64,000 nucleotides of DNA from Candidatus Uhrbacteria bacterium RIFCSPLOWO2_01_FULL_47_25 (GTDB taxonomy: Bacteria > Patescibacteriota > Patescibacteriia > GWA2-46-9), in NCBI GenBank assembly GCA_001791325.1, contig MGEK01000004.1:8566-72565 (forward strand), written 5' to 3'. Numbering within the stretch: the stretch's first letter is position 1; every line of letters begins with the position of its first letter. The translations under genes were made by a program, and so were the position numbers. Shown here piece by piece: positions 7,686 to 31,527 of this stretch. A model generated the notes under the pieces. That model was not told where the DNA came from, made no database searches, and saw nothing but the letters and a program-made list of their open reading frames with translations.

Positions 7686-10600
7686 TTGGTGAAAATGTCT
7701 AAATTATTGGGGGCAAAAAAAAGAAAAAACCCCGCACATCACGGACGCAATAAGCCAGTGGCGCGGGGCCAAAGACAAGAAACTCGCGCAAAAAAACGCC
7801 TCAAAGAACGTGTTTTGGGCGTTATTCAGCGTCAGGTCAAATTAAGGGAACTAAAAGTTTTGGCGCGGCGCGGCGTCATAGGTACGGTAGTGGTCGTTTT
7901 GTTTATTTCCAGTCTTTTTGTCAGAGCCGAGCCCAATCCGTTGCTTGTTCATGAAGTAATTTATCCGCAGTCTTGCCGTGGCACTTGGCAGGGGATGAAT
8001 AATATTTTTACGCAGGAGCTTGATGCCAGAGCCGAGGCCGATGATTTTAATAAGACCAATAGCGCCATGCCCGCCTTGGGCGAACCAACTGTTGCGGCAG
8101 TGCCGGGCAAGGAAGAGTACAACGCTTTCACGGTGTCATTGCCAATTCTTGACCAGCAGTCAAATGTTGATACGTTGATGGATCAGCCGTCAGATACAGA
8201 TCAGGATTTACAATTGATTATTCCACCCATTATTCCTTCTCAAGAGGAGTCGCCCGTTGAAAACGCGCCTTCTCAAAATACACCCATTGAAGATAATGAC
8301 AATAATAGTGAAAATAAGAGTTTAGAAAACGCTCCTTCAGAACAAGTTCTTGGGGAAGAGGACAAAGCAGATGATTCCAGTCAGCCGGTAACAGACGAAC
8401 AGCTGTCAACGGAGAAATCCAATGAGGAACAGGAACAGCCGTTATCGCCACCCTCACAACCTCAACCCCAAGAGCCGCTAGATACTCAATTATTTCCAGA
8501 ACCTGAAACAAAGCCATTGGCGCCACCCGACGATACGTTGCCAATGCCGACAGAACCGCCGGCAACAGAACCGTCAGGAGCGGAACCGTCGTCAACAGAC
8601 CAGCCGATAATCAATTTCAACAATTTGTTGGATAAACTGATTAATAAAGCTTTGGCCGAGGAAGACGCTATCCTGAATACAGATACCAACGCGAGTACGG
8701 CAGATACAAATGGCGCCGAAACTAAAGTTGATTCTAATAGCGAGGCAGACGGCTTTAGTGTTGAAGACATAGTGAAATCAGTGGCGGAAAAGATTGGAGA
8801 TATTGTTAGCGATTCTGCCGATAAGGTGAGTGAAATCATCGCGCCAATTACGGCGGAGCCAGTGGATATACAAAATTTAACACCCGGCACCCCGTCCCTA
8901 GAAACAAAACCGGAGGCTGAAGATTCGCCGTCTTTGCTCGGCACTTTATTTGATGCGGTGGGGCAGGCAATATCTGCAATTACGGATTTAATTTCGCCAT
9001 TGCCGCCGTCAGTTTTAGAGGCTCCATCATTCGCGATACAGGATAGTAATATCTTAAAAACGGAAAATGGCACAATGGCCTGTGCAGACTTCACCCCTCC
9101 TGCCACCACGCAAATTGAACAGGCGTCGCTCGGTCTATCATATACTTTAAAAGATCAATCGCCATTGCCAAACGAGCAGTCTGGATTTCTATGGGCTGAA
9201 TATACTCAAGATAGACAGAATTGGATGATATTAAGTTCCATTGAAGACACGAACTCATCAGTTGAATCGGCTTATCATTTATTTAATTTTCCTCCCGACT
9301 TTGACGCTGGACGCATAAGCGAGACCATTGTTCGTTTGCGCTGGTTTGGCAAATATGATGAGCCGGAAATTTTTATAGATAGTTTATGGCTAGATGTTGC
9401 TCGCCTTGGCGACAGTGAGCAGGAAAAGCCTTCGGAATTAAAAACCGCTAAAAAAGATTTTGCCGCTTTTGAGGACCCGGTTTTTAATTTAAGCTTTGAT
9501 CCGCAAGTGCCCCTATCAGCAAAGAGAGGCGTCATATTTGATAACAGCCAGTCGCAATCAATCATAGAAAAGTATAAAGAAAGATATAAGCAGTGGCTGG
9601 AATCATGGGCGAATTTTATTATTCAAAAACCATTGTCATTCGCGCGTAACGCGCTGGCGCAATCTCCGTCGGCTGATCAAGCGACGCCAAACGACGCGGC
9701 TCTATGGCATGAGACTAATCTGGATATTTCCGCGCGTCTATTGACTAAGGATTATGGACCCACTGACATTGTTCCAGAATTATTGCGCTTAAATTCCGGG
9801 CAATTCAAAATATCGCTTGCCGCGCGCGCCTTCCGCCCTGGCGCCTATATTTTACAAACAACAATTCAAAAAGGGGAGAGTGTCCAAACCCTAGAACAAG
9901 ATTTCACTTGGGGGGTACTCGTCGTAAATACTGACCAGTCGGTTTATAAAACCGGCGACGAAGCTTCATTCTTCTTTGGGGTCTTGAACGATAAGGGAGA
10001 GACTGCCTGCGACGCGACGCTTGAAGCGAAAATTACGGATCCTGCAGGACAGGCGGTGACACTAGCCACGGCTGACGGCACCATCAAGTCCTCTAGTTCA
10101 TGCGCGAAAAACAGCGTCACTGATACGCCTGACTATGGGGCGACTTATCATACAACCACGGCAGGCACCTATGCACTGGCAGTGACGGCTACGACGGTTG
10201 AGGGGAGCCACACCATCACTGACACTTTTTCAGCACAAGATGACCTTCCGTACCGCGTTCGTCGCAGAGGCGCGAGTCGTATTTATCCTTTGGCCAAGTA
10301 CGAGATGTCAATTGAAGTTACGGCACGCAATGATTTTAAGGGAACTGTTACCGAGCGCGTTCCGTTAGATTTTATTGTCACGCCGTCGTCGAATTTTGTA
10401 ATTACTGCAGTAGAAGACGCCCAAGCATTAACGTGGGATGTTGCGCTTCAAGCAGGAGAGAGCCAAAACTTCACGTACGAGTATAACGCACCTGACATTT
10501 CTCCAGCCATTTTTCATCTGGGAGAATTTTCTTTAACCGCTTCCGGCGCCGATCAGCCGATATTTATTGAACCCAATCAGTGGGAAATAGCGAGCGACGG

Positions 10601-13600
10601 ACTTGACCCAGTTATTATCCACGCGCCAGAGGTGGCGCTCCGTCCAGAAGTGCGCGGAAAGGCCGAGCGATTAGCAAGAGAGGTGCCGCTTCCCGAGAAC
10701 GTTCCGCATCACACCCGTTCAATGGAAGGAAATTTTGAAAGCCGGAAAATGAATAGACCCGTCAGTCTTGCTCTGGCTCGCGAGCAGGTGCCGCCAAACG
10801 CAAAGATTTCTGTTGTTGACGCTTATGGTAAAGAAATTACTGACGGTATCGTAGTAAATACAGAAGAAGATACTATGACCGTGGATATTAACCCCGATGC
10901 TAAAGGTATGCGCCCGGGAAAATATACTCTTTATGTGACGGATCCTGACACCGAAGAAGTGCTGGCTGAACAGGATTACACTTGGGGAGTGTTGGCTTTC
11001 AACCCTGATTATGCCGTGTATCCGCCTAACACAACAGCCAATCTCTCCTTTGGCGTGCTTGATGATGCCGGGCGGGTGCTTTGCGATGCGGCCTTGGTCG
11101 CTATTATTGCCGATCCTAGCGGGAATGAAACAGTGCTTGGCACTGGCGATGGTTCGATACGGGTAAACGAGGAATGCTATCAAATGGAAGATACGCAGAA
11201 ACCAGATTATGAAGCCAACTTTGACACAACTATTCCCGGTATCTATCAAATGACCATCATCGCCAAAAGTAAAAACGGCGAGCGGACGCTCAATGATTCG
11301 TTTTCTGTTGATCCAAACGCCGCGTTTTACCTCAAGCGCACAGGGCCGACCCGCACATATCATCCAGCCACTTACAATTATTCCCTCGACTTTACCGCCA
11401 AAGAGGCTGGCACTTATGACATAACGGAAAAAGTTCCTGCTTCATTTACTATAACGGGTGATGGTTTTACCGTAACCGAACAAGACCAAACAAAAATTTT
11501 ACACTGGCAAGTAACGGCCGTGGCGGGGGAAACTAAAACACTGGCTTATCGTTTCAAAGGACCGCCGCTCTCGCCGTATCTTTTTTTACTGGGAGCGGCG
11601 GAAGTAAAAACATCCAGCCCAAATCAAACATGGGTTGAGCCCAGAGAGTGGATGCTGGCCTCTGACAACGCTTGCTCTTCCGACGTTGATCCTTCTGGAA
11701 ACTGGAATACAGCTGGTTCATGGACCTCATGCGGTGGCGTGGTACCGACGACAACTGACACCGTCGCCATTGTTGACGGCGATACTATCACGATCGACTC
11801 CGCGCCTAATTCTGTCATTTCCGTCAACATCAATCTCGGTGGTACGTTAAATGGCGGCTCGGCGACTCTCAATATCAACAATACCGCCGCATCTGGCACT
11901 TCTTTTACCAATAGCGGTACGTGGACCTCCTCAACCGGCACCGTTAATTTTGGCAGCGACGTTGCGTTAACAATGCTTTCAGGAAGCTTTATTGGTTCTA
12001 ATAATTTCAATAACATTACCCATACTTTTACTCCCACTGCTGCAAGAACATACACCGTGGGCGCGGCAGTTGAGATTGGTGGTAATTGGACGTCAACTCC
12101 GGGGTCTACCAGTAACGCCCGCGATTTAACCATTAATTTAAGTGGAGCAACTACTGTTACTGGGACACTAACTCTTGATGGTCGAGGTTGTAATAATGGC
12201 GCTGCTGATGGCACCGCTTCTACCACGCAATTTTCTACCAATGGCCAGAACTTAACAGTTCGCGCGATAGTTGTTGATGGTATTACGAATGGGGATGGTT
12301 GCCGATTTACCACAGCTAACTCTTCTGTTGTTACGTTTACGGGGACGGGTACTACGACGCTTTTCACTTTAGGTCAGACAGGTAGCACCGCCTTGATGAC
12401 TACCGGGACTACTACTGAATGGGATGTTACTTCCGTGTCAGGCACCCCGACGCTTTTTTCCACTTCCGGGACAACAATTACCGTCCACATTTTAAAAATC
12501 GCTGCCTCCGCAACCATTGTCAACCTTGGCGCAGCCTTTACGATTGACGCCAATTCTGGAAATAAATTATGGATTAATTCTGGCATTTTAAATCAGGAAA
12601 ACAGAACTATTACCGCCGGAGCTAGCGCAACTCTGCAGATTGATTCTGGCGGCACTTTGTGCTTGGGCGGGACAACTGCTTCCACCACGGCTAATTGTGC
12701 GTCAGGCGCGACTCAAGCTACGGCTCAAGCAATGCCTTCGTTTACCACCTATACTTTTGACGCCGCCTCAACCGTTTCCTACCTTTCTAACGCTAACGTC
12801 GTGTTTTCCAGTACCCCGAACTATGGCAACTTAACGCTCAACCCGGTCTTGATCAGCACCAACCGTACCTATACACCTGGAGGAGCCATGACCATTAACG
12901 GTGATTTCACTATCAACCCTAATGAGTCGTTTACCGATACTCCCTCGCTCACCGTCGATCCACTTAATAACTATACCGTGGCCTCTGGTAAAACCACTAC
13001 CATTACGAAGACCAATGCCGCCACTTCTGTTCTTATTCTGCCGTTAGCAGTGAGCCAATACCTGTCAACAGGTAAGTTAGTCATTGCCAGTGGTGGAACA
13101 CTCAATGGTGCTATCAGTTCTGCCACGATTATCATTAAGGACACCGGCGCGGCTTTTACCAATAGCGGCACTTATACTTATGGCCTCACAAAAGTGTCTT
13201 ATACGAACACCACTAGCTCCACTGTGTTAGGCATGACCGGCACCAGTGGCACGAATGGATATTATGATTTAGACATAAATGGCACTGGAGGAACCCATAC
13301 GCTGGGGGCCAACACCACGGCCAATAATGCCACCACCATTACCGCCGGCACCTTAAACACTTCGGCAGCCAGCAGCTTCACTTTGACCACTAGCACCTTG
13401 AGCATCACGGGCGGTCTAACGGCCAATGCCTCGTTTATCAATATAACCGGAGCCGGCGCGGCTTTTACTAAGTCTGGCACATTTACTTATGGTACTTCAA
13501 CAGTTGAATATACTAATGCTACGGGAGCGACTGTTTTGTCTATGAACAATGTTGGCAGCACCAACGCCTATTACACTATTTGGGTTGCCAATGGCTCTCA

Positions 13601-16600
13601 TACTCTCGGAGGGGATATCCGAGTTTATGGCGATTTAGCATCAGTATCTGGCACCCTTTCTGACGCGACTGATAGCGTAACGGTAGTTGGTAGTGTTACT
13701 TGTTTTGCTGCGTTTGCGTGTGGAACCATTACATTTACGGGCGGCACTTTTACCCAGATCGTCGCTGCTAATCAGACTTTTGGCACGAATGCATCAGATA
13801 GTACTATAGATTGGACTTTTAATAACCTGACTTTTGATAGTTCTTCTGGATCAAACACTATTACTTTAGGTAATATAGGTTTGACTGGTACCGGTCAAAT
13901 TATTGTTAATGGAACATTAACAATTGGCACAGGGGGCACAATGACCACTCTGCAGGCTGATACCTATGACCGCATCATTGACGCGAACATCGTGACCATT
14001 ACCTCAAAAGGAATCTTGTTCGCCTCGTCTTCGGCGTTGTTCACCGTTGCCGGAGCATTTACTCATACTTCCGGCGGCACTTTCACTCACAGCAACGGCA
14101 TTGTCACATTTGACGGCACCGCGGCCTTGAATTTTGTAAATAATACAACGACTTTTTATGATGTGGTGGTTGCTACCGGGGTAACAAGAACAATTACCGC
14201 AGGAGCCAGCAATGTTCTTACTATAGCCAATACTCTGACAATTAATGGAACAGGAAGAATGGTCTCATTTTCTTCCGAACAATTGTATCTTACAAAAAAT
14301 GGTGAAACGCCGCTCATTGTGGGCGGGGCAACAGCAGTGAATGGACTAACCCTTGTTGTATATAGGCCAGCTGGCACGGCCACTAACGTCGCCGCCACGA
14401 CTTATAATTACCTCTATATATTACCGACCGCGGCGACGACATTAACCCTTCTCGGCGCAACCACAGTCAACGTCAACCTTTTAGTGACAGGTCCTGGTGC
14501 CGGTATAGTTGCCACTCTGGACACGAATGGCCAAACCCTCAATGTCGTCGGCGCTGTCGTCGCCGGTTTTGGTACACCGGGTGCTGTTATTATAGGCGCG
14601 AGCACAGTGGATGTGGACGGGGATGTATTAATTTGGGATGTTTCCGGAAGCTATATCAGCATGACTTCGGGCAGCTTGAATGTTGGCGGCAACTGGTCTA
14701 ATGGAGCGAATTCAGTCTTTACTGCCGGCACTGGCACCGTTACTTTTGACGCCGCGGACGCCGGTAACACCATCGCCACGGGCGGAACTGACAGTAACCA
14801 TGATTTTTACGATGTCATCTTTGATAATTCAGCCGGCTCTTGGATATTCCAGACAAACGACGTCTTAATCTCCAATAATTTAACCGTCACAAATACATCG
14901 GCCACAGGAGTTAACGCCTCGGTGAATGTGACGGTCAACGGCAGTGTTACTGGAGCGGGTGTAATTAACATTACTAATAGCGTGACCTTTACCCAAAAAG
15001 TGGCAGCCGTCAGTAAGACTTTCGGCACCACCTCTGGTGCCAATGATTGGACATTTTATAACTTAGCCTTTGAAAACTCCTCGGGACCCCGGACCATTGA
15101 TACTAATGGAGGGTCGGGACAAATTATCGTTTCCAATACCCTAACTATTGGTAATGCCGATGATTCCACGGTGACCACTCTTGACAACAACACTACTAAT
15201 GACCGCATCATTGACGCGAACATCGTGACTATTACCTCTAAAGGAAGCTTGACCGCTTCTTCCTCGGCTTTATTCACCATTGCCGGCGATTTCACCAATA
15301 ACGGCACCTTCACGCATAGTAGCGGCACAGTTACTTTTGACGGCGCGAGCGCCAACATTAACATACCAGACGCGGGCATAACATTTTATAAGGTTATTAT
15401 TGATATCAGTAGCCCCAATGCTAAAACCTTAGTGAACGGTGCCACGATTGCCGTGATGACTGTGGCTAACACCCTCACCGTTAATGGCACTGGCGCCTTG
15501 ACTTCCGGAGGAGGCAATGAACAGGTTAAGCTCACCAAAGACGGCGATACCGGAGGAGTGCCTTTAACGGTTGGCGGTGCCACAGCCGTTTCGGGGGTGG
15601 CCGCTTTTATTTACGCTCCGGCCGGCGCCGCCACCACGGTTACCGGAACTACTTACAGCTCTCTTACTATTAACCCTACTGCGGCTACCACGTTGACGTT
15701 AGGCGAGGCTGTCATAACAAGTGGCGCTTTGTATGTCTTTGGTCCCAATAGCACTACCGCCGCCACTCTAAATACAAATAACTACGACCTGACAGTTGGT
15801 GGAGCCTTGTTTGTCGGTGCATGGTATTTGGGTTATGCCGATGGAGTGGTTAATTTGGGAAGCAGTACGGTTACGGTGAGTGGGGACGTTTGGATAATGC
15901 AAGATACGGGATCCGAACTTGATGCCGGCTCATCTACCCTGACGGTTGGCGGAAACTGGGTTTGGTTTTCCGCCTTTAGCTCCGGCGGTATTTTTACGGC
16001 GGGCACGAGTACCGTCAAATTTAATGCCGGTGATGCAGGGAATACCATTGATGCCGGCGCCGGCGCGTTTAACAACGTTATATTTGACAACGCCGCCGGC
16101 TCCTGGACGTTTCAGACCACGGCGGCGACAATTTCTGGAGATCTCACCATGACCGCGGCCACGCAGGTTAACGCTTCGGTTAATGTTACAGTGAACGGCA
16201 ATGTATCGTGCGGTGTGACATGCGGAACGATTAATATCACAAACGCTGTTACGTTTACCCAATCCGTTGACGCGGCTAAGAATTTTGGCACCAGCGTTGT
16301 CGATGACGCAACAGTCTGGACATTTAGCAGTCTGACCTTTACAGCCACTACAGATACCATAACTACTAGCTCCAATGGCACCGGCAATATAAATGTTACT
16401 GGCACCTTAACTATTTCCGGCTCAACTACTCTGGATGCCGGCGATCGTAATTGGGTTCTATCCGGCGCTGGCACGCCCTTCGCGCGAACCGGAACTTTCA
16501 CCGGAAACACATCCACTTTTAATTATACTTCAACCACCGGAGTTGACGCCCTTTCCTCGGCCGCCATGACCGGTTCTAATGCCTACTACAATCTCACTAT

Positions 16601-21356: not shown

Positions 21357-21360
21357 TGAA

Positions 21361-23030: not shown

Positions 23031-23031
23031 A

Positions 23032-24959: not shown

Positions 24960-25904
24960 ATGAAAATTCGCTACTCGCCATCATCCTTTATTGCTTTTTT
25001 AGTCGGTGGATTAACGGTGGGCGTGATCATGTCGCCAACCGCAGTGATGGCGCAAGCAGTAAAAACTCTCACTATCTCACCCCTCACTTTTGAACTAACC
25101 GCCAATGCGGGCGAGACTATATCTAATGTCTTAAAGATATATAACAATAACGATTTTAATATATCAGCCAACATTGATGTTGAAGATTTTGCTCCGGCCG
25201 GAGAGACCGGTCAAGCAGTGGTTACCGAACCGCAGGAGGATAATACCTATTCTTTGGCTCGTTGGATTACGGTTGAGGAAGAAACATTTGAAATAGAGGC
25301 ACAAAATTTTCGGCCGATTACTTTTCATGTTAACGTTCCCCTGAACGCCGAGCCGGGAGGGCACTACGGAACAGTACTTGCTTCTATCGCCGATGGTGGT
25401 GGCGAGGGCGGAGTTAGCGTGGCATCTAAAGTAGGCGCGCTTTTACTGCTTCAGGTGGCTGGTACGGCTAAAGAGTCTCTAAACGTCGCCAGTATGGGAG
25501 CGCCGAATTTTTCCGAATACGGGCCCGTAACCATTGCCACGAGATTCCAAAATACTGGCACTGTCCATTTAAAGCCGCGGGGGTTTATTTTAGTGCAAAA
25601 TATGTTTGGCCAAGAAACAGCCAAATTAAATTTAGACCAGAAAAATGTGTTGCCTAACTCGGTGCGTAGGATAGAATCAAAATTAGACGAGAAATGGCTA
25701 TGGGGTAAATATACGGCGACCTTGACGGCGATTTACGGTTCAACCAATGAGCCACTTTCTTACACCACAACTTTTTGGGTGATCCCTTGGCGGGTGAGTT
25801 TGGCTGTCGGCCTCATACTATTGATCGTTTTCATTATTCTTTATCGGGCTCGTCGGCGGATATTTTTGGCGCTCAAAATTCTCTTAAAGGGTGAACATAG
25901 TTGA
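24960..25904 (+). CDS. DUF916/DUF3324-like cell-surface protein with C-terminal membrane anchor (CscA-like)
   Basis: Signal peptide; WITVEEETFEIEAQNFRPITFHVNVPLNAEPGGHYGTVLAS; C-terminal TM LAVGLILLIVFIILY + RARRR. Paralogous to the C-terminal half of 21517..22953. Confidence 0.55.
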   Translation: MKIRYSPSSFIAFLVGGLTVGVIMSPTAVMAQAVKTLTISPLTFELTANAGETISNVLKIYNNNDFNISANIDVEDFAPAGETGQAVVTEPQEDNTYSLARWITVEEETFEIEAQNFRPITFHVNVPLNAEPGGHYGTVLASIADGGGEGGVSVASKVGALLLLQVAGTAKESLNVASMGAPNFSEYGPVTIATRFQNTGTVHLKPRGFILVQNMFGQETAKLNLDQKNVLPNSVRRIESKLDEKWLWGKYTATLTAIYGSTNEPLSYTTTFWVIPWRVSLAVGLILLIVFIILYRARRRIFLALKILLKGEHS

Positions 25905-25974
25905 AGAATATAGAATACAGAATCTAGAATAGAGAACTTGGAACATGGAATTTAAAACATGGAATTTAAAACAC
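25905..25974 (+). repeat. ten tandem 7-bp units (AGAATAT AGAATAC AGAATCT AGAATAG AGAACTT GGAACAT GGAATTT AAAACAT GGAATTT AAAACAC) between the CscA-like gene and the dockerin gene. The dockerin gene start codon lies within the array
   Basis: Strict 7-bp periodicity read directly. Confidence 0.8.
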
Positions 25975-26894
25975 AGATTATCATTTTTTGCGGTTGTGTT
26001 GTCGTTGGTTCATTTTTCGTCATAGCGAGCAACCACGTTATTGCGCAATCAAATTCGCAGGGCGTAGGCGTTTCCATTACTATTGAGCAAACAACAACGC
26101 CGCCTCCCACTCCGCCGCCTAGCGGTGGCGGAGGAGGTGGTGGTGGAAGTACAGTTATTGTTCCATCGCCAACGGATATCGCCACATTTGTAATGAAAGG
26201 TAAGGCTTATCCAAAAGCGATAATAACGATACTGCGCAACGGCGCAGTTACTAAAACGCTGATTGCTGGAAACGACGGATTATTTGAAGCGACCATCTCC
26301 GGATTGCCTGCTGGTTTGCAGACTTTTGGCGTGTACGCGCAAGATACTGAAGGGAAAAAATCCGTCACTTTAAGTTTTACCTTAAGCCTATTGGCTAATA
26401 TGACGACCACGCTGGAGGGCTTAATTATACCGGTAACCATAGAAATATCTTCGCCGGTCGTAAATCAAGGTAATCCATTATTTATATATGGTCAGTCGTT
26501 TCCGGAAAGCAATATCAGTCTTTTTATTCAATCAAAAGAAGTAGTTAAAACGACAGCCACTAAGCCGAGCGGCAATTGGCGATATGAATTGGATACGGCG
26601 CCATTGGATTTGGGCGATCACGCGGTTCGCGCGAAAGCGCAGGCCTTAACCGGCGAGCAGAGTGAGTTTTCAGAAACCAAATTTTTTCGGGTAATACCGA
26701 AAGGAGCTCATGGGACGCCCGGCAGTTGTCCTGCGGATTTGAATGATGATAATCGTGTAGATATTACTGATTTAAGTATTTTATTGTATAATTGGGGCAC
26801 GCCAAAGAATACTCGCGCTGATTATAATAAGGATGGCAGGGTTGATATCGTTGACTTTTCAATTCTGCTTTACTATTGGGGAACGTGTGTATAG
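25959..26894 (+). CDS. secreted Ig-like-domain protein with C-terminal type-I dockerin module
   Basis: Signal peptide; Pro/Gly linker; duplicated calcium-binding segments DLNDDNRVDITDLSILLYNWG and DYNKDGRVDIVDFSILLYYWG. Confidence 0.7.
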   Translation: MEFKTQIIIFCGCVVVGSFFVIASNHVIAQSNSQGVGVSITIEQTTTPPPTPPPSGGGGGGGGSTVIVPSPTDIATFVMKGKAYPKAIITILRNGAVTKTLIAGNDGLFEATISGLPAGLQTFGVYAQDTEGKKSVTLSFTLSLLANMTTTLEGLIIPVTIEISSPVVNQGNPLFIYGQSFPESNISLFIQSKEVVKTTATKPSGNWRYELDTAPLDLGDHAVRAKAQALTGEQSEFSETKFFRVIPKGAHGTPGSCPADLNDDNRVDITDLSILLYNWGTPKNTRADYNKDGRVDIVDFSILLYYWGTCV

Positions 26895-26900
26895 TTGTAA

Positions 26901-27056
26901 GAATATGGAATATAGAATATTGAATATAGGGATGTGCTGTGAAGAATATGGAATATTGAATATGGAATATAGGGATCGTTGATTTGAGAAAATTAATTGA
27001 AGAATATAAAATTTAGAATATAGGGATCGAACGGTGGAGAATATTGAATATACATT
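26901..27056 (+). repeat. second copy of the promoter-proximal block (heptamer arrays + 128 bp identical to 21389-21516)
   Basis: Direct comparison with 21361-21516. Confidence 0.85.
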
Positions 27057-28595
27057 ATGAAAAGTGAAATTAAGTCATTTCGAGATTTGATAGTTTGGCA
27101 AAAATCTTCCAATTTAGCAACTTTAATATATGGCATTACTAACGATTTTCCCAAGAGCGAAATGTATGGTTTGACCAGTCAAATGCGCCGAGCTGTTGTA
27201 TCAGTTTCATCTAACATTGCAGAAGGCTTCAAACGAAACTCTAGAAAGGAGAAGGTACAATTCTACACAATGGCCTATGGTTCTCTTTCAGAATTAGAAA
27301 GCCAGATTGATATTTCAAAAAATCTTCACTATTTATTGGAAAGCCAATACCAAACAATAATTGAGGCAATTAACGAGGCGTCAAGGCTTTTGGACGGTAT
27401 TATTAGAGCCACTAACAGAACTCACAACGATCGTTTTTTTTCGCCTGCCATCTCTGTACTACTTGCCGTTGCGATCTCTGTATTCTATATTCAATATTCT
27501 ATATTCCCAACAGCGCCTGCCGGCGCTGTTTCGTCCGTGCGGCTTTTTTTTATTCCGGAAAATTCCGAGGTCGTTGCCGGTGATATTATAAAAAGTGACA
27601 TTTGGGTAGACACGCAGGGAAATACTATCAATGCGGTGGATATTAGTGTTTCTTATGATTCAATGGTTGAGCTTTTAAGCGCGGAGAAAAATGATTCAAT
27701 TTTGAATTTATGGGTTGAGGAACCGAGCTTTTCCGATACTACGCGCCGCGCTAAATTTACCGGCGGCCGTACTGGCGGGTTTGAGGGTCGGGGAATAATT
27801 GGGCAGTTGTATTGGAGAAATGAAAACGCCGGGGGAAAAGCAACTTTAGGCTTTGATGAGTCGTCTGTTGTTTTATTAAATGATGGATTGGGTACTCCAG
27901 CGGAGCTAGAGAGACGACAATCGGATTATAATATATTGGCCAAGGGAGAGGGTTTATTGAATTTATCTTCGGCCTCGCACCCGGATGAAAATAAATGGTA
28001 TAATCAGCCGTTTGTGCGTTTAAGTTGGCCGACAATAGAAGGCGCGATTTACAGCTATTTAGTTACGAGGGATCCGGCTCAACTACCAGATGACACGTTG
28101 GACGAGCCAGTAGGCAATATTAAGCTAAGCGACCTGACGGACGGCGTATATTATTTTAAGCTTAAACAAAAAAAACTCGGCGAAGAAGGGTGGTCCAGTG
28201 TTGTTTCCAGACAAATTAAAATTGACAAAACGCCGCCGGAATTTATTGAGGCAAAGATTTCACGTGATTCGGAACTTGTTCAAAATAAGTATTTCGCGAG
28301 CTTTGCCGCTAACGACAAGGCATCTATAGCTCGTTATGAAATAATTGAAGGGGATAGCGCTCCGGAGCCGATATTGCAGCCGCCATTTATTTTAAAAAAT
28401 CAAGATAGAAGCGTGGCCGTTACAATTAGAGCCATTGACGCGGCCGGTAATTACAAGGACATAATTATACCGGCCCTGACTTGGTGGCAAAGGCCGTCAA
28501 TTATTTTATATGTGAAAATAGGGCTTATTGTCGGGCTAGCTCTAATTGCAGCGGTGATAATAATTGTGATTATCAGGAGAAAAAAATCAATATAA
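27057..28595 (+). CDS. four-helix-bundle (Avd/23S-IVS-like) domain fused to TM, cohesin-like domain, Ig-like domains and C-terminal TM anchor
   Basis: N-terminus FRDLIVWQKSSNLATLIYGITNDFPKSEMYGLTSQMRRAVVSVSSNIAEGFKRNS. Cohesin-like INAVDISVSYDSMVELLSAE...LWVEEPSFSD. (TATATTC)4 at 27479-27506. Terminal TM + RRKKSI. Confidence 0.65.
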   Translation: MKSEIKSFRDLIVWQKSSNLATLIYGITNDFPKSEMYGLTSQMRRAVVSVSSNIAEGFKRNSRKEKVQFYTMAYGSLSELESQIDISKNLHYLLESQYQTIIEAINEASRLLDGIIRATNRTHNDRFFSPAISVLLAVAISVFYIQYSIFPTAPAGAVSSVRLFFIPENSEVVAGDIIKSDIWVDTQGNTINAVDISVSYDSMVELLSAEKNDSILNLWVEEPSFSDTTRRAKFTGGRTGGFEGRGIIGQLYWRNENAGGKATLGFDESSVVLLNDGLGTPAELERRQSDYNILAKGEGLLNLSSASHPDENKWYNQPFVRLSWPTIEGAIYSYLVTRDPAQLPDDTLDEPVGNIKLSDLTDGVYYFKLKQKKLGEEGWSSVVSRQIKIDKTPPEFIEAKISRDSELVQNKYFASFAANDKASIARYEIIEGDSAPEPILQPPFILKNQDRSVAVTIRAIDAAGNYKDIIIPALTWWQRPSIILYVKIGLIVGLALIAAVIIIVIIRRKKSI

Positions 28596-28601: not shown

Positions 28602-29996
28602 ATGCGAGGGTGGGCGCTTAAATTATTCGTTTCAATTTGCCTAATAACGCTAACGAGTGTCACTGAAGTAAATGCTGCTGGCACCGCTTCTCTATCCCTC
28701 TCGCCGTCACAGGGCGCGTTTATTGTTGGCAACTCTTTTGATGTTTCCATATTTGTTAATACCAATGGCAATGATATTAATACGATAGAGGTTAATGTAA
28801 AATTTTCGCCAGATACCTTGCAAATAGTCAGTCCCAGCGCCGGTCAATCATTTATTTCGGTATGGATTACCCAACCTACGTTTTCCAATGAGCAGGGGAC
28901 TATTCATTTTGCCGGAGGGCTTCCTTCGCCAGGCATTAATACCACGGCTGGACTTGTTTCCACTATAACATTTAGGGCAAAAGCTCCGGGCACTGGCACC
29001 ATAGAAATTTTACCTAACTCAAAAGTTCTCTTGAACGACGGAAAGGGAACAAATATTTTAACTTCAGTTACCAAGGGCTCATACAGTCTAACTTTAGCGG
29101 CTCCTGGCGGTCCAGAAATTTCGTCCTCTACTCATCCTGACCAAAACGCCTGGTATAAAAACAATAATCCGGTTTTTAGCTGGACACGAGGTTTAAGCGC
29201 GGCGCAACCGGTTGAAAATATGACGGAATTTAGCTGGTGGTTTGATCAGGATCCAAGAGGGTATGCTGATAATAAAGCTGACGGAACGGGCTTAAACGCT
29301 TCATATAGCGACGTTCAGAGTGGTATTTGGTATTTCCACGTAAAAGGCAAAATTAGCGATTTATGGGGGCAACAAAGCTCATACGCGGTGCGTATAGATA
29401 ACACGCCGCCAGCCGCTTTTACGCCAAACATATCGCCGGACGGATCAAAGCCAAATGAGCGGCGCATCGTGTCATTTACTACTACTGATCAGCATTCCGG
29501 CCTTGATCATTACGAAGTTAAAGTATTGCCGCTTGATGAAAATACTGGCGCGGAGCCATTTTTTACTGAACATACGAGTCCGTGGCTGACCACTTCTTTG
29601 GGTATTGGTCGCTATCAAATAATTGTGCGCGCTTTTGACAAGGCTGGGAACTGGCAGGATGGGACTTTGACAATCACGAATGAACCGCCGCCGCCAACCT
29701 TAAAAGAGAAATTCAATCAGGGTATTATAGTGAATGGAAGATTCATTGCCTGGTGGATGATTCTTACCGGCAGTATTATTTTATTGCTGTTACTGCTGCT
29801 CATTTTGATATTGTGGCGCCGCGCGCATGAGGATGTTTCAGAGCAAATACAAGAGACTTTGGAAAAAGCGCACGAGCGCTTGCGGCGCCAGCATGGAAAA
29901 ATTGCCGCTGAACTTAAAGAAGAAGAGGAGGTTAAAGAAGTGTTAAGTCAGGAATTAAAAGATTTAGAAAAGGACGATCACGATAAGGGAGAGTAG
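28602..29996 (+). CDS. cohesin-like-domain surface protein with C-terminal TM anchor and charged coiled-coil tail
   Basis: Signal peptide; IEVNVKFSPDTLQIVSPSAGQSFISVWITQPTFSNEQGTIHFAGGLPSPG...TITFRAKAPGTGTIEI resembles the cohesin fold signature; THPDQNAWY domain; TM LTGSIILLLLLLLILILW. Confidence 0.55.
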   Translation: MRGWALKLFVSICLITLTSVTEVNAAGTASLSLSPSQGAFIVGNSFDVSIFVNTNGNDINTIEVNVKFSPDTLQIVSPSAGQSFISVWITQPTFSNEQGTIHFAGGLPSPGINTTAGLVSTITFRAKAPGTGTIEILPNSKVLLNDGKGTNILTSVTKGSYSLTLAAPGGPEISSSTHPDQNAWYKNNNPVFSWTRGLSAAQPVENMTEFSWWFDQDPRGYADNKADGTGLNASYSDVQSGIWYFHVKGKISDLWGQQSSYAVRIDNTPPAAFTPNISPDGSKPNERRIVSFTTTDQHSGLDHYEVKVLPLDENTGAEPFFTEHTSPWLTTSLGIGRYQIIVRAFDKAGNWQDGTLTITNEPPPPTLKEKFNQGIIVNGRFIAWWMILTGSIILLLLLLLILILWRRAHEDVSEQIQETLEKAHERLRRQHGKIAAELKEEEEVKEVLSQELKDLEKDDHDKGE

Positions 29997-30020
29997 CGGG
30001 TAGTGGCAGTTTTGAGTTGA

Positions 30021-30126
30021 AGAATATAGAATATTGAATATGGAATATGGGTATTGAACCGCGAAGAATATAGAATTTAGAATATGGGTTTGAAATTAGA
30101 AGATATAGAATTCAGAATATAGGTGT
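30021..30126 (+). repeat. heptamer arrays (AGAATAT AGAATAT TGAATAT GGAATAT; AGAATAT AGAATTT AGAATAT; AGAATTC AGAATAT) upstream of 30127
   Basis: Read directly; same family as 21361-21431. Confidence 0.8.
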
Positions 30127-31527
30127 ATGAAAAGCGAAATTAAATCGTTTAGAGATTTGATTGTGTGGCAGAAGGCAGCCGCCCTTGTGTTGATCGCTAT
30201 ATTCTATATTCTATATTCTATATTCCCAATCTCGCCAGCTAACGCTGGCTCTGCCTCACTCTCATTGGTTTCCTCAAAGCGAACTTACACCGTCGGCGAA
30301 AATGTCGCGGTTAGCGTTATTTTGAGCACGGGAGATGTTAGCATTAACGCGGCAAGCGCTACGATTACGTTTGACCAAAAGAAGCTCTCAGTAGTAAGCG
30401 TTTCTCGTTCCGGTTCAGTCTTCACTTTATGGGCGGAAGAACCAACCTTTTCAAATTCTCAAGGAGTAATTAGTTTGGGCGGAGGGTTGCCAACGCCGGG
30501 TTTTTCCGGTAGGGGAGCGATTATTATCAGAATTACTTTTCGGGCAAAAGAAGAAGGCACAACGGCTGTCAGATTTGCCGGCGGAACGGTTTTGGCGAAT
30601 GACGGACTGGGCACTAATGTTTTAGCAGGACTCACTGGTCTTGATTTAACTATTCAGGGAAGGGCGGTCGTTACAACGCCGCCGGAGAAACCCCTAGAAA
30701 GAGCGCCGGTTGTTACCCCACCAGGTCAAGTGCCGTTGGCGCCGGTTATTTTGTCGCGTACGCATCCTGACGAGTCTGGTTGGTATCGCAATGCCCAGCC
30801 GGGTATTATTTGGGAATTACCGTCTGATGCTAAGGGAGTAAGTGTTAGTATTGATCAAAACGCGAATGGTGATCCCGGCACAACCTCTGAAGGGCTATTT
30901 AACTTTTACAGCGCCAAGGAGCCGCTTAAAGATGGCGTTTGGTACGCCCATGTCAGGGTAAGCAATAGTCGCGGTTGGGGGGCGATTGGTCATTACCGCT
31001 TAGCTATTGATACCGCGCCGCCGATGATTACAACGGCAAAATTGGTGTTTGAAGCAGCCAGAACCAAGGCCATAGAATTTGCCACTAGCGACCCCTTATC
31101 ATCAACCGACTATGTATCTATTTTAGTCAATGGAGAACAGGTCGCCTCGCAAGCTAGCTCGCCATACACCTTACCGTCATTAATTCCCGGCAATCATGTG
31201 ATTACAGTAATAGCCTATGATAAAGCAGGCAATAAAGCGTCCCAGGATCTCTATTTGAGCATTTTGAGCCAAGAAATATCAAGCGCGCCAAGAACAAGTC
31301 TTTTAATCATTATCATTCTTATTCTCGCCTTGATTTTGCTGGTTATATTTATCATCTGGCACTTCTATGAACGCCATCATCGCCGGGCCATTTTGGAAGA
31401 ATTAGCCAAAACCAGGCGAGAGCTTAAAGGAATGTCGCAAAAGTTACGCTCACTGGAGGGTAAATTAAATGCCCATGCTAATGCAAATGTCAGTGAAAAG
31501 TCCCAAACAACAATTAAAAAAATATAG
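30127..31527 (+). CDS. cohesin-like-domain surface protein whose N-terminus retains only the first ~19 codons of the 4HB module (MKSEIKSFRDLIVWQKAAA) joined directly to the (TATATTC)4-encoded TM segment
   Basis: Compare MKSEIKSFRDLIVWQKAAALVLIAIFYILYSIFPISPANAG with the 21517 protein; heptamer array at 30198-30225; cohesin-like ATITFDQKKLSVVSVSRSG...LWAEEPTFSNSQG. Confidence 0.65.
   Translation: MKSEIKSFRDLIVWQKAAALVLIAIFYILYSIFPISPANAGSASLSLVSSKRTYTVGENVAVSVILSTGDVSINAASATITFDQKKLSVVSVSRSGSVFTLWAEEPTFSNSQGVISLGGGLPTPGFSGRGAIIIRITFRAKEEGTTAVRFAGGTVLANDGLGTNVLAGLTGLDLTIQGRAVVTTPPEKPLERAPVVTPPGQVPLAPVILSRTHPDESGWYRNAQPGIIWELPSDAKGVSVSIDQNANGDPGTTSEGLFNFYSAKEPLKDGVWYAHVRVSNSRGWGAIGHYRLAIDTAPPMITTAKLVFEAARTKAIEFATSDPLSSTDYVSILVNGEQVASQASSPYTLPSLIPGNHVITVIAYDKAGNKASQDLYLSILSQEISSAPRTSLLIIIILILALILLVIFIIWHFYERHHRRAILEELAKTRRELKGMSQKLRSLEGKLNAHANANVSEKSQTTIKKI

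What the first reader, a model, noticed from the sequence alone, without database searches (positions are those of the whole stretch)
7686..31527. Cell-surface cluster combining a giant beta-helix protein, Csc-like (DUF916-like/WxL-like) proteins, cohesin and dockerin modules, and Avd/23S-IVS-type four-helix-bundle fusions
Nine consecutive same-strand genes encode signal-peptide or TM-anchored proteins:
- a 4556-aa repeat protein
- two DUF916-like anchored proteins (21517, 24960)
- a WxL-like secreted protein (23614)
- a dockerin protein (25959)
- three proteins with cohesin-like modules (27057, 28602, 30127)

In Firmicutes, DUF916 + WxL proteins form non-covalently wall-bound Csc complexes, and cohesin-dockerin pairs assemble cellulosome-like scaffolds. 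Their co-occurrence here points to a modular, self-assembling surface complex in a CPR-like genome. This is consistent with an epibiotic/attachment organelle but uncharacterised. Unusually, three of the proteins start with a cytoplasmic four-helix-bundle domain of the family otherwise found as free-standing selfish/IVS proteins. From memory this is the same family as DGR Avd.
Basis: partly seen in the sequence, partly recalled or inferred. Interest (0 to 1): 0.85.

Follow-up and report, generated by a model that had tools for sequence, protein, structure and literature searches.

The report
CPR surface operon colonised by selfish cassettes
A widely conserved but apparently undescribed gene cluster of ultra-small (CPR) bacteria encodes a membrane-anchored surface assembly built around a giant beta-helix adhesin. 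Its odd "four-helix-bundle fusions" are hairpin-flanked selfish gene cassettes lodged in the signal-peptide regions of the surface genes.

Summary
The ORFs exist as described, in Candidatus Uhrbacteria RIFCSPHIGHO2_12_FULL_46_13.

**Domain calls**
- Confirmed: dockerin, two cohesins above Pfam threshold (the third by paralogy), beta-helix fold of the giant protein, and signal/anchor segments.
- The DUF916-like call holds at family level: 37 of 40 relatives hit WxLIP_PGBD.
- "WxL" fails every HMM test. What exists is a different C-terminal beta-sandwich shared by the giant and the small protein.

**Conservation**
The gene order giant, A1, small, A2, dockerin, cohesins recurs across CPR. 426 species genomes encode the A2 family. 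Of 80 loci examined, 74 have the dockerin gene and 65 have cohesin genes.

**The four-helix-bundle fusions**
- Only two proteins carry a four-helix bundle (4HB). The third keeps 17 residues of it.
- Each such ORF lies between inverted arrays of short tandem repeats, like 23S-rRNA intervening sequences.
- The right arm, (TATATTC)4, encodes the hydrophobic signal-peptide core.
- Most orthologous clusters lack these ORFs. Others carry them free-standing, or carry the unrelated nuclease at the same site.
- One natural variant has lost exactly two heptamers. This unfuses the 4HB and gives A1 its own start codon.

The surface-complex reading is supported. The functional-domain and Avd readings are not.

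The parts
7686..21356 (+). Giant surface protein (4556 aa). It has an N-terminal basic region and a TM/signal anchor (aa 63-81), then an acidic low-complexity stretch. Ig/MG2-like domains follow at about aa 700-1330, then beta-helix repeats at about aa 1340-4390.
20883..21353 (+). C-terminal beta-sandwich domain of the giant protein, ending ...AAGPYQTTIIYIVTPQF. It is homologous to the C-terminal half of 23614 and is called the 'W-like' domain here.
   Evidence: BLASTP against 23614 gives E 5e-08. phmmer with this domain finds both the giant proteins and the small proteins in other loci.
21357..21513 (+). Left-arm region of cassette 1. It holds four arrays of GAATATN heptamers and a sigma-70-like site, TTGAGA-17-TAAAAT, at 21444-21472.
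   Evidence: Positions 21389-21516 are 128/128 identical to 26929-27056.
21517..21891 (+). Four-helix-bundle ORF (23S rRNA IVS protein family), read in frame into A1.
   Evidence: PF05635 at 128.9 bits and TIGR02436 at 119 bits. 117 of the 120 closest homologues are free-standing proteins of 101-143 aa. Three longer ones (164-188 aa) are truncated N-terminal pieces of the same kind of fusion.
21918..21945 (+). Right arm of cassette 1, (TATATTC)x4. It encodes FYILYSIF, the hydrophobic core in front of the PISPANA|G cleavage-type site. The unit number is polymorphic: 2 units in L087.
   Evidence: Variant. Frame analysis.
21517..22953 (+). A1, a WxLIP-like membrane-anchored protein (478 aa as fused). 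The ectodomain starts at about aa 151 and the C-terminal TM helix is aa 446-464.
   Evidence: Paralogue of 24960. Orthologues of 337-392 aa without a bundle in L004, L005, L006 and L016.
22704..22734 (+). Solo ATATTC-type heptamer array, in frame inside A1. It encodes NILYSIFYIL.
22934..23510 (+). GxxExxY/PD-(D/E)XK cassette. The left arm is an array of ACGCTGA motifs at 22934-23031, which overlaps the A1 stop codon. The ORF is 23032-23463. The right arm is an array of TCAGCGT/TCGGCGT motifs at 23433-23510.
   Evidence: PF13366 E 4.8e-30 and TIGR04256. Repeats. The RNA fold pairs the arms, z -4.8.
23614..24882 (+). Small secreted protein (422 aa): signal peptide, an N-terminal Ig-like domain, and the C-terminal W-like domain ending ...AGTYGNTITYITTPTF.
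24960..25904 (+). A2, a WxLIP-like protein (314 aa): signal peptide, a DUF916-type domain, a second beta domain, and a C-terminal TM helix with an RRR tail.
25902..25938 (+). Solo GAATAT-type array in the A2-to-dockerin spacer.
25959..26894 (+). Secreted Ig-like protein (Big_6, Big_13) with a C-terminal dockerin at aa 258-306 (nt 26730-26876). The dockerin has two Ca-loop repeats, DLNDDNRVDITD and DYNKDGRVDIVD.
26897..27053 (+). Left-arm region of cassette 2, with the same arrays and promoter-like site (26984-27012). Its length varies between assemblies: +58 nt and -90 nt.
27057..28595 (+). Coh1 (512 aa as fused). The four-helix bundle is aa 1-123. The right arm at 27478-27505 encodes VFYIQYSIF. 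The cohesin-type module is at about aa 157-290, followed by Ig-like modules and a C-terminal TM helix.
28602..29996 (+). Coh2 (464 aa): ordinary signal peptide, cohesin at aa 42-159, Ig-like modules, TM helix and a charged cytoplasmic tail.
30018..30227 (+). Decayed cassette 3. It has left-arm arrays at 30018-30120, the first 17 codons of a four-helix-bundle ORF at 30127-30177, and the right arm (TATATTC)x4 at 30198-30225.
   Evidence: The RNA fold pairs the arms around the start codon, z -4.1.
30127..31527 (+). Coh3 (466 aa). Its signal peptide is built from the cassette remnant: MKSEIKSFRDLIVWQK plus AAALVLIAIFYILYSIF plus PISPANA|G. The cohesin is aa 53-160, followed by a Big_13 domain, a TM helix and a charged tail.

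Best explanation
Two things are superimposed.

**(1) A conserved CPR/Patescibacteria operon for a non-covalently assembled surface structure.**
- Shown: two membrane-anchored WxLIP-like proteins (A1, A2) each follow a protein that ends in the same C-terminal beta-sandwich. One of these is the giant beta-helix adhesin-like protein and the other is a small secreted protein.
- Shown: next come one secreted Ig-like protein ending in a dockerin, then two to five cohesin proteins held in the membrane by a C-terminal helix.
- Inferred, by analogy with Firmicutes WxL/Csc clusters and with cohesin-dockerin scaffolds: A1 and A2 hold the giant and small proteins at the cell surface. The dockerin protein plugs into the membrane-anchored cohesins. 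Together they display the beta-helix fibre, plausibly for attachment to a host cell or substrate.

**(2) In this lineage the operon has been colonised by four IVS-type cassettes.**
- Shown: each cassette is a small ORF placed between inverted arrays of short tandem repeats whose two arms pair in predicted RNA folds. The ORF is either a four-helix-bundle protein of the 23S-rRNA-IVS family or a GxxExxY nuclease-fold protein.
- Shown: the 4HB cassettes sit at the 5' ends of A1, Coh1 and Coh3. The pyrimidine-rich right arm lies inside the signal-peptide coding region and encodes its hydrophobic core.
- Shown: a 7-nt repeat unit gives the same heptapeptide in all three reading frames.
- Shown: in A1 and Coh1 the cassette ORF has no stop codon, so the host protein must be translated as a 4HB-hydrophobic segment-ectodomain fusion.
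- Inferred: the arm-encoded segment acts as an internal signal or anchor, and signal peptidase cuts after ANA/AGA. That would leave the bundle on the cytoplasmic side and release a normal mature surface protein.
- Shown: gain or loss of heptamer units shifts the frame. With 4 units A1 is fused. With 2 units, as in a natural variant, the bundle is free-standing and A1 starts at its own ATG.
- Computed only: with 3 units A1 would have no start codon.
For: **Operon**
- Domain calls come, and paralogy.
- Synteny holds in L004-L006.
- 426 GTDB species genomes encode the A2 family. Of the 80 best loci, 74 have the dockerin gene directly downstream, 65 have cohesin genes and 37 have W-like genes. The recurring order is W-A-W-A-D-C-C.

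**Cassettes**
- Heptamer arrays occur only around these genes: 32 matches against 0.69 expected.
- The arms pair in minimum-free-energy folds.
- Of the 24 4HB/PDDEXK ORFs in the window and related loci that could be scored, 18 have flanking inverted arrays at z >= 3.5. The repeat units are lineage-specific: GAATATN, CAGTATN, GTAGTAA, GAAAC, CACTAAAC, GCGAAT.
- Mismatches between arms are G:U-compatible on the sense strand 53 times against 22 on the antisense strand, p = 4.5e-4.
- Orthologues in L004 and L005 have ordinary signal peptides and no cassette.
- At the A1 site, the window has a fused 4HB, L006, L021, L025 and L028 have a free 4HB, and L007, L018, L041 and L057 have a fused PDDEXK.
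- At the Coh1 site, the window and L016 have a fused 4HB, L009, L027 and L076 a free 4HB, and L054 a PDDEXK.
- 117 of the 120 closest 4HB homologues are 101-143 aa and free-standing. Three contig-truncated longer ones (P0337, P0340, P0352) show the same 4HB-...LYSIFYIL...-ectodomain junction, and P0340 and P0352 continue into cohesin-type N-termini.
- The two full cassettes are 128/128 identical upstream of the ATG but only 213/315 identical in the ORF.
- L087, an independent assembly, is 99.7% identical over 5.66 kb. Its only indel is the loss of exactly two heptamers.
- The fusion is present in at least 14 other assemblies.
- The frame logic was computed.
Against: **Operon**
- No experiment exists for any component.
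- The W-like domain fails Pfam WxL (0 of 56) and lacks the Trp-x-Leu motifs. Pairing of A with W therefore rests on gene order and on the WxLIP_PGBD similarity alone.
- The second domain of A1/A2 is not recognised as DUF3324.
- Which protein binds which was not modelled.

**Cassettes**
- No true empty-site against filled-site pair with target duplication was found, so mobility is inferred from patchy distribution.
- Arms differ even between two Uhrbacteria species, yet they are identical between cassettes within a genome. The arms could therefore be host-maintained features rather than element termini.
- Start-flanking inverted repeats are not significantly commoner in cluster genes than in other genes: 6 of 377 against 2 of 444 at score >= 30.
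- If RNase III cut the stem as it does in rRNA, the host mRNA would lose its start codon. The RNA-level role is therefore unclear.
- Export and cleavage of an internal signal placed after a folded 125-aa domain is inferred, not shown.
- Only one unit-number variant was seen, and both observed states keep A1 translatable.
Confidence: 0.62

Rival explanations
1. The four-helix bundle (and, in other genomes, the GxxExxY domain) is a genuine functional cytoplasmic domain of A1 and Coh1. It might link the surface complex to an intracellular partner or to nucleic acid. On this view the fusion is adaptive, not a by-product.
For: The fusions are intact and in frame, and the fused state is the majority in at least 14 independent assemblies. 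In-frame fusions recur in several lineages: L016, L007, L018, L041, L057, and the partial proteins P0337, P0340 and P0352. No alternative start codon exists for A1 or Coh1 in the fused state.
Against: Most orthologous clusters lack any such domain: only 19 cassette ORFs were found across 17 of the 80 loci. Two unrelated folds occupy the same site. In eleven loci the ORF is separate and merely start/stop-coupled to the host gene. A natural variant of this very strain is unfused. Coh3 keeps only 17 residues. 117 of the 120 closest homologues are free-standing.
Confidence: 0.12
2. The heptamer arrays are primarily host contingency loci. They would be slipped-strand repeats in the leader-peptide region that switch surface proteins on and off, as in Neisseria opa. 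On this view the small ORFs and the upstream arrays are incidental.
For: The repeats have a 7-nt unit and lie inside the signal-peptide coding region of three surface genes. A loss of exactly two units is the only indel in 5.66 kb between two assemblies. Computation gives a three-state outcome that includes an OFF state. The opa precedent is described in PMC3960869.
Against: The arrays come as inverted pairs that bracket ORFs. This is also true where no host coding region is involved, for example the GxxExxY cassette, whose motifs recur at irregular 10-16-nt spacing, and cassettes with no downstream gene in L060, L061 and L085. Both observed states leave A1 translatable and no OFF allele was seen. 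The Coh1 and Coh3 arrays are invariant in about 24 contigs.
Confidence: 0.15
3. The cluster is a cellulosome-like polysaccharide-degrading machine rather than an attachment or envelope structure.
Against: No glycoside hydrolase, lyase or carbohydrate-binding family was detected in any of the ten proteins. There is only one dockerin protein, and it carries Ig-like domains. The best structural matches of the beta-helix are adhesin passengers. Every cohesin protein carries a single cohesin and a membrane anchor, not tandem cohesins.
Confidence: 0.06
4. The fusions are assembly or gene-calling artefacts at repeats, or A1 and Coh1 are pseudogenes in this organism.
For: Many assemblies break exactly at the repeat arms, giving 5,676-nt contigs. 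The left-arm region differs by +58 nt and -90 nt between deposited versions of near-identical sequence.
Against: The fused reading frames are identical in contigs from NCBI, ENA, JGI and Logan samples. The 28-nt right arms are far shorter than a sequencing read. The ectodomains are full length, contain no stop codons and are 40-51% identical to their orthologues.
Confidence: 0.04

Closest known systems
WxL / Csc cell-surface clusters of Lactobacillales and Bacillales. These combine WxLIP (DUF916-DUF3324-TM helix) with a small and a large WxL protein (PMC10599100, PMC9772566, PMC1534035).
   Same: The membrane-anchored protein has a DUF916-type first domain, a second beta domain and a C-terminal TM helix. 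It is encoded next to one small and one very large secreted protein that share a C-terminal domain. All genes are on one strand. Surface assembly is non-covalent, with no sortase signal.
   Different: The shared C-terminal domain is not a Pfam WxL domain and has no Trp-x-Leu motifs; its consensus is AGxYxNTITYIATPTF. DUF3324 is not detected. There are two anchor paralogues. The cluster always continues into a dockerin gene and cohesin genes. The host is Patescibacteria, whereas 91% of known WxL proteins are in Firmicutes.
Cohesin-dockerin assemblies: cellulosomes, and non-cellulosomal pairs such as the Clostridium perfringens NagH dockerin (2jnk/2ozn).
   Same: A type-I-like dockerin with two Ca-binding repeats. 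Single cohesin modules on cell-anchored proteins.
   Different: No enzymes and no multi-cohesin scaffoldin. Anchoring is by a C-terminal TM helix rather than by SLH domains or sortase. The dockerin protein carries only Ig-like domains.
23S rRNA intervening sequences that carry an S23p/four-helix-bundle ORF. Examples are the Coxiella burnetii IVS (PMC4990558) and 23S_rRNA_IVP ORFs in CPR rRNA insertions (PMC11270868).
   Same: The same protein family (PF05635/TIGR02436). The ORF sits in the loop of a long stem formed by terminal inverted repeats. Distribution is patchy and decayed copies occur. GxxExxY ORFs occur in the same kind of cassette here.
   Different: These cassettes are located in mRNA, at the 5' ends of protein-coding genes, not in rRNA helices. 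The arms are tandem arrays of 7-12-nt units rather than unique sequence. The right arm is translated as part of a signal peptide. The ORF can be fused to, or translationally coupled with, the host gene.
Slipped-strand contingency repeats in leader-peptide coding regions, such as the Neisseria opa CTCTT repeats (PMC3960869).
   Same: Tandem repeats whose unit is not a multiple of 3 lie in the hydrophobic leader region of surface-protein genes. Unit number differs between otherwise identical genomes and changes the reading frame.
   Different: Here the repeat is one arm of an inverted pair around a selfish ORF. Two of the three frames still give a translatable host protein, either fused or with its own ATG. 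No OFF allele has been observed.
Autotransporter and two-partner-secretion beta-helix adhesins (Pet, Hap, Ag43, EtpA).
   Different: No beta-barrel translocator and no TPS domain. The organism has a Gram-positive-like envelope. The protein ends in the W-like domain and starts with a TM anchor.

Membership tests
WxL/Csc cluster (Firmicutes) | WxLIP first domain = DUF916 / WxLIP_PGBD (PF06030) | tested here: met
   The window protein 24960 scores 18.0 bits, below the cutoff of 27.3. However, 37 of 40 family members hit the model at E<=0.01, best 8.8e-09. About a quarter of homologues carry a precomputed PF06030 hit. 21517 is a paralogue.
WxL/Csc cluster (Firmicutes) | WxLIP second domain = DUF3324 / WxLIP_HBD (PF11797), directly after the first | tested here: inconclusive
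   None of the 40 family members hits PF11797. A second beta-rich region of about 100 aa is present. The only PF11797 signal is a sub-threshold hit inside the giant protein, 24.9 bits against 28.9.
WxL/Csc cluster (Firmicutes) | C-terminal transmembrane helix on the WxLIP | tested here: met
   Hydropathy peaks at aa 446-464 of 21517 and aa 279-297 of 24960, each followed by an RRR-type tail.
WxL/Csc cluster (Firmicutes) | At least two adjacent proteins (one small, one large) with a C-terminal WxL domain carrying two Trp-x-Leu motifs (PF13731) | tested here: not met
   No PF13731 hit for the giant protein or for 23614, nor for any of 56 relatives at E<=1. The conserved C-terminus is AGxYxNTITYIATPTF. 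A different C-terminal domain is shared by the small and the giant protein. No solved WxL structure or AFDB library was available for a fold test.
Cohesin-dockerin system | Cohesin module (PF00963) above the gathering score | tested here: met
   28602 scores 32.3 bits and 30127 scores 36.4 bits against a cutoff of 24.1. 27057 qualifies only by paralogy to 28602, E 3e-34.
Cohesin-dockerin system | Dockerin with a duplicated Ca-binding segment (PF00404) | tested here: met
   26.8 bits against a cutoff of 22.9 at aa 259-303. The two repeats are DLNDDNRVDITD and DYNKDGRVDIVD. phmmer hits solved dockerins 2jnk, 2mte, 1daq and 4fl4.
Cohesin-dockerin system | Physical binding of the dockerin to the cohesins | not testable with these tools
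   No multimer prediction or binding assay was available.
Cellulosome (in the strict sense) | Dockerins borne by carbohydrate-active enzymes, and a scaffoldin with tandem cohesins | tested here: not met
   No CAZyme or CBM family was found in any cluster protein. Each cohesin protein has one cohesin.
23S rRNA IVS protein / four-helix-bundle family (PF05635, TIGR02436) | Full-length match above the cutoff | tested here: met
   21517 aa 9-113 scores 128.9 bits and 27057 scores 124.9 bits against a cutoff of 33.8. TIGR02436 scores 119 and 116 bits against 24. 30127 retains only 17 residues, so for it the feature is not met.
DGR accessory protein Avd | NF033474 equivalog score, and a neighbouring reverse transcriptase with template/variable repeats | tested here: not met
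   39.4 and 36.2 bits against a cutoff of 80. bAvd (PF22296) scores 34-36 bits against 40. No reverse transcriptase was found among the cluster proteins or the ten neighbouring ORFs scanned.
rRNA intervening sequence (IVS) element | An ORF enclosed by terminal inverted repeats that form a long stem | tested here: met
   Inverted arrays in the window. Arms pair in the minimum-free-energy folds. 18 of 24 scored cassettes have z >= 3.5. G:U-compatible mismatches are biased to the sense strand, 53 against 22.
rRNA intervening sequence (IVS) element | Insertion in a 23S or 16S rRNA helix | tested here: not met
   There is no rRNA in the window. The cassettes lie at the 5' ends of protein-coding genes or between them.
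rRNA intervening sequence (IVS) element | Excision by RNase III | not testable with these tools
   This needs RNA-end mapping or an in vitro cleavage assay.
Slipped-strand contingency locus (opa type) | A tandem repeat in the leader-peptide coding region whose unit is not divisible by 3 | tested here: met
   (TATATTC)4 at 21918-21945 and 30198-30225, and a 4-unit variant array at 27478-27505.
Slipped-strand contingency locus (opa type) | Unit-number polymorphism between otherwise identical genomes, with ON/OFF consequence | tested here: inconclusive
   One variant, L087, has 2 units instead of 4, and this is the only indel in 5.66 kb. Both states keep A1 translatable, and an OFF state is only computed. 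The arrays of Coh1 and Coh3 are invariant in about 24 contigs.

The most novel reading that the evidence does not exclude
The 4HB and GxxExxY 'IVS proteins' travel in a distinct class of RNA-structured cassettes whose arms are tandem-repeat arrays. In CPR bacteria these cassettes settle in the signal-peptide coding regions of surface-protein genes. There they supply the promoter, the start codon and the hydrophobic leader, which is frame-proof because the unit is 7 nt long. Slippage of the units then gives a three-state switch (fused, separate or off) over components of a previously undescribed CPR attachment organelle. This organelle is an ancient relative of the Firmicutes WxL/Csc system joined to a cohesin-dockerin anchor.
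Probability: 0.25. Interest if true: 0.85.

Novelty: new variant of a known kind. Interest (0 to 1): 0.7.

Why it matters
How CPR/Patescibacteria cells hold on to hosts or surfaces is largely unknown beyond type IV pili. This operon is found in hundreds of species-level genomes across many CPR classes. Its core is strongly conserved, with about 50% identity for the A2 anchor. It gives concrete, testable candidates: a 4,500-residue beta-helix fibre, two WxLIP-like anchors, and a one-dockerin, several-cohesin membrane dock.

It also extends DUF916/WxLIP-type anchoring far outside Firmicutes.

Separately, the four-helix-bundle 'IVS proteins' and the GxxExxY proteins are among the most abundant uncharacterised small proteins in CPR, cyanobacteria and Bacteroidota. 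Here they are seen in repeat-armed hairpin cassettes inside mRNAs. A translated arm forms a signal peptide, and a natural two-unit slippage variant exists. This gives a defined system in which to ask what these elements are and how hosts tolerate or exploit them.

Tried and rejected
- **Foldseek against AFDB50.** This would have allowed comparison with predicted Firmicutes WxL domains, but the library was not available.
- **Sequence profiles of the 23614 and 24960 families against PDB.** They found nothing useful.
- **Exhaustive profile search of 1.84 billion representatives.** It showed a large family (4858 hits) but lists only the 150 best. All are close relatives, so it could not show a bridge to Firmicutes WxL proteins.
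- **Supplements of the WxLIP paper.** They hold no sequence alignments as text.
- **Two metagenome-contig scans for alleles of the A1 array.** Both returned nothing, because that collection does not hold this locus.
- **PADLOC.** It has no model matching the 4HB or GxxExxY proteins.
- **Enrichment of start-codon-flanking inverted repeats in cluster genes against other genes.** No significant difference was found: 6 of 377 against 2 of 444. ORF-less mini-cassettes are real but rare.
- **Whole-cassette RNA fold energy for cassette 1.** It is not significant (z -1.3), because the 400-nt loop dominates. Only the arm pairing is informative.
- **Differences in LCND01000032.** These are a 90-nt deletion at the Coh1 start and a 109-nt deletion in dnaB. 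They were not used as biological evidence because they may be assembly errors.
- **Rejected readings.** DGR/Avd: scores are below cutoff and there is no reverse transcriptase. Cellulosome: there are no enzymes.

Full report
**Source and context**

The window matches scaffold_954 of sample SAMN03842431 exactly (L090). It matches GenBank MGEN01000033.1 except for a 58-nt repeat-copy difference. The organism is Candidatus Uhrbacteria bacterium RIFCSPHIGHO2_12_FULL_46_13, a Parcubacteria-group CPR bacterium.

The neighbours of the cluster are housekeeping genes. Upstream are dnaX, metK and tRNAs. Downstream are rplU, recR, dnaB and ftsEX. The cluster is therefore chromosomal and not on an obvious island.

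**Checking the observation**

The nine ORFs are at the stated coordinates.

- **Dockerin and cohesins.** Pfam confirms a dockerin at the C-terminus of 25959 and cohesin modules in 28602 and 30127, all above the gathering scores. The dockerin also matches solved dockerins. 27057 has no Pfam cohesin hit, but it aligns with 28602 over 368 residues, including that module (E 3e-34).
- **WxLIP-like anchors.** 21517 and 24960 are paralogues. 24960 alone is sub-threshold for DUF916/WxLIP_PGBD, but 37 of 40 members of its family hit that model.
- **Topology.** Hydropathy shows a leader or internal hydrophobic segment in all nine proteins. A1, A2 and Coh1-3 also have a C-terminal TM helix.

- A tenth ORF, 23032-23463, encodes a GxxExxY/PD-(D/E)XK protein.
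- Only two proteins carry a four-helix bundle (4HB). 30127 keeps 17 residues of one.
- 23614 and all 56 of its relatives that were tested miss Pfam WxL even at E<=1.

What does exist is a C-terminal beta-sandwich shared by the giant protein and 23614 (E 5e-08). It ends in a conserved AGxYxNTITYIATPTF. The AF2 model of 23614 (pLDDT 87) matches Ig-like surface proteins generically.

**The cluster is conserved across CPR**

- The A2 family has 660 close relatives at about 50% identity.
- A scan of one genome per GTDB species found 426 loci, essentially all in Patescibacteria lineages. These include Uhr-, Veblen-, Specht-, Colwell-, Terry-, Morani- and Nealson-bacteria, CPR2 and Berkelbacteria. 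A few labels suggest mis-binning.
- In the 80 best loci the order is W(giant)-A-W(small)-A-D-C-C(-C...). The dockerin-type gene follows A2 in 74 loci. Cohesin-type genes are present in 65 and W-like genes in 37 (also 15-17).
- The most conserved core is the A-D pair.
- No paper combining CPR/Patescibacteria with cohesin-dockerin or DUF916 was found in the searchable library.

**Comparison with the WxL/Csc system**

[quoted passage not shown] A WxLIP is DUF916-DUF3324-TM helix, and the two WxL proteins are one small and one large. 91% of known WxL proteins are in Firmicutes.

The CPR cluster matches in architecture. It has a membrane-anchored DUF916-type protein beside one small and one huge protein that share a C-terminal domain. 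It fails the WxL-domain test, and DUF3324 is undetected. It therefore plausibly works like a WxL cluster, and its anchor is homologous. It should not be filed as a WxL cluster. The constant dockerin-plus-cohesin extension has no counterpart in Csc clusters.

**What the four-helix-bundle fusions are**

Architecture of the cassettes in the window:

- The 4HB ORFs of 21517 and 27057 are each preceded by several arrays of GAATATN heptamers and followed by (TATATTC)4.
- 30127 has the same arms around a 17-codon remnant.
- The downstream array is translated as FYILYSIF, the hydrophobic core in front of PISPANA|G.
- Because 7 and 3 share no factor, every reading frame of the array gives the same heptapeptide.
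- The arms pair in predicted RNA folds.
- The GxxExxY ORF has the same architecture with a different motif, ACGCTGA...TCAGCGT.

Comparison with the related loci:

- Of the 24 4HB or GxxExxY ORFs that could be scored, 18 have flanking inverted arrays at z >= 3.5. The units differ between genomes.
- Arm mismatches are G:U-compatible on the sense strand 53 times against 22 on the antisense strand, p = 4.5e-4. This points to an RNA stem.
- This is the anatomy of 23S-rRNA intervening sequences that carry the same ORF family. The Coxiella IVS has a 28-bp stem cut by RNase III, and 23S_rRNA_IVP ORFs occur in CPR rRNA insertions. Here the location is mRNA.

Evidence that the fusion is a by-product rather than a domain of the surface proteins:

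- Orthologues of A1 and Coh1 in L004 and L005 have ordinary signal peptides and no arrays.
- L006, L021, L025 and L028 have a free-standing 4HB ORF whose stop codon overlaps or abuts the A1 start.
- L009, L027 and L076 have the same arrangement before a cohesin gene. L016 has a 4HB-Coh1 fusion like the window.
- L007, L018, L041 and L057 have the unrelated GxxExxY domain fused to A1. L054 has it before Coh1.
- In the unfused cases the right arm still lies in the host signal peptide. Examples are LSTVYGILYT, LLTTYYLLPT and LFSVLFSV.
- 117 of the 120 nearest 4HB homologues are free-standing and 101-143 aa long. Three contig-truncated longer ones (P0337, P0340, P0352) show the same 4HB-...LYSIFYIL...-ectodomain junction, and P0340 and P0352 continue into cohesin-type N-termini.
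- The two full cassettes in the window are 128/128 identical upstream of the ATG, a stretch that includes a good sigma-70-like site. They are 31/34 identical in the right arm but only 213/315 identical within the ORF. The arms are therefore homogenised or constrained independently of the cargo.

**A natural switch**

An independent assembly, ERZ27254845 (L087), is 99.7% identical to the window over 5,662 nt. Its only indel is the loss of exactly two TATATTC units in the A1 right arm.

The consequences are:

- The 4HB ORF now ends after 143 codons.
- A1 is read from its own ATG as MFSLLYLYSIFPISPANA|GEIG....
- Computation gives a cycle. With 1, 4 or 7 units A1 is fused. With 2 or 5 units it has its own ATG. 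With 3 or 6 units it has no start codon.

The fused allele is the common one, seen in at least 14 assemblies. The left-arm region before Coh1 also varies in length between deposited versions, by +58 nt and -90 nt. That variation may be an assembly effect.

The parallel with the opa CTCTT leader repeats is close. However, no OFF allele has been seen.

**Mechanism: what is shown and what is inferred**

Shown:
- Domain content, paralogy and conserved gene order.
- Cassette anatomy, and its patchy and interchangeable occupancy.
- The fusion is obligatory in the 4-unit state.
- The 2-unit allele exists.

Inferred:
- A1 and A2 retain the giant and small W-like proteins at the surface.
- The dockerin protein binds the membrane-anchored cohesins.
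- The beta-helix serves attachment.
- The arm-encoded segment acts as an internal signal or anchor and is cleaved.
- The stem forms in RNA.
- Unit slippage is frequent enough to matter.

Unknown:
- How the cassettes move.
- What the 4HB and GxxExxY proteins do.

**Verdict**

It is a pan-CPR surface operon, best described as a WxLIP-anchored, cohesin-dockerin-docked beta-helix adhesin system.

Novelty is rated as a new variant of known kinds. Interest is 0.7.

Noticed in passing
window 7539-7665 and 34479-34606 (inverted); related copies at 32143-32258, 35428-35536 and 62240-62354: A structured repeat of about 125 nt is bounded by CCCCGTTAGAAG...CTTCTAACGGGG termini and has an internal CCCCGC-ATAG-GCGGGG hairpin. 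One copy lies immediately upstream of the giant gene. Another lies, inverted, immediately upstream of dnaB, so the two copies bracket the whole cluster plus rplU, recR and dnaB (26.8 kb). Shorter relatives with CCCCGTTAGAGAA cores occur in three other spacers. It could be a MITE/REP-like element or a shared 5' leader.
   Followed up: partly
window 5539-5863: Three tandem tRNA-like copies are spaced about 125 nt apart (79-94% identical over 52 nt). Only the third, 5791-5863, is called as a tRNA (tRNA-Gln CTG) by ARAGORN and Rfam. The other two may be divergent tRNAs or decayed copies.
   Followed up: no
window 37888-38344: A minus-strand tRNA cluster shows oddities. There is a 59-nt weak tRNA match at 37888-37946 (31 bits). 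ARAGORN also gives two overlapping tRNA-Gly(CCC) calls, at 38195-38265 and 38252-38344, the latter 93 nt long.
   Followed up: no
window 31580-31609 and 51295-51324: A near-perfect 30-nt palindrome, AAACTATCATACTATATAGTATGATAGTTT, lies just after the last cohesin gene and again 19.7 kb downstream. It scores as a terminator-like hairpin and could be a bidirectional terminator family.
   Followed up: no
window 358-2916: An 852-aa protein carries VirD4/TraG-type coupling-protein domains (TrwB_AAD_bind, T4SS-DNA_transf). It lies a few kb upstream of the surface cluster.
   Followed up: no
L004 6247-6957 and 11973-14327: In another CPR genome the same operon carries different insertions at the same junctions. 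A Y1 (IS200/IS605-type) transposase gene lies between the giant gene and A1. A Wzy_C/TPR protein lies between the dockerin gene and Coh1. The giant-to-A1 and dockerin-to-Coh1 junctions look like general insertion hot spots.
   Followed up: no
L007 5300-5500 and 7920-8040; L006 12030-12200: ORF-less mini-cassettes are present. Arrays upstream of the start codon pair with complementary arrays in the signal-peptide region, with no 4HB or GxxExxY ORF between them. The units seen are TACGAAA, ACACCAAT and CAGTATN. The unit differs from the window's GAATATN even in a second Uhrbacteria species.
   Followed up: partly
window 22704-22734 and 25902-25938: Two solo heptamer arrays of opposite orientation lie 3.2 kb apart. 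One is translated in frame inside A1 as NILYSIFYIL. The other lies in the A2-to-dockerin spacer. Neither has a cassette ORF of its own.
   Followed up: partly
L002/L089 (LCND01000032.1) compared with window 27022-27110 and 33370-33477: The 2015 assembly of the same population lacks 90 nt at the Coh1 cassette start, between AATTTAG microhomologies. It also lacks 109 nt inside dnaB, which splits that gene. These are probably assembly errors, but the first removes the 4HB start codon.
   Followed up: partly
proteins P0198, P0224, P0237, P0238, P0258, P0293: Some relatives of the small W-like protein are multi-domain proteins of 770-3,077 aa, with up to ten copies of its N-terminal Ig-like domain. 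The module is therefore reused in larger surface proteins.
   Followed up: no
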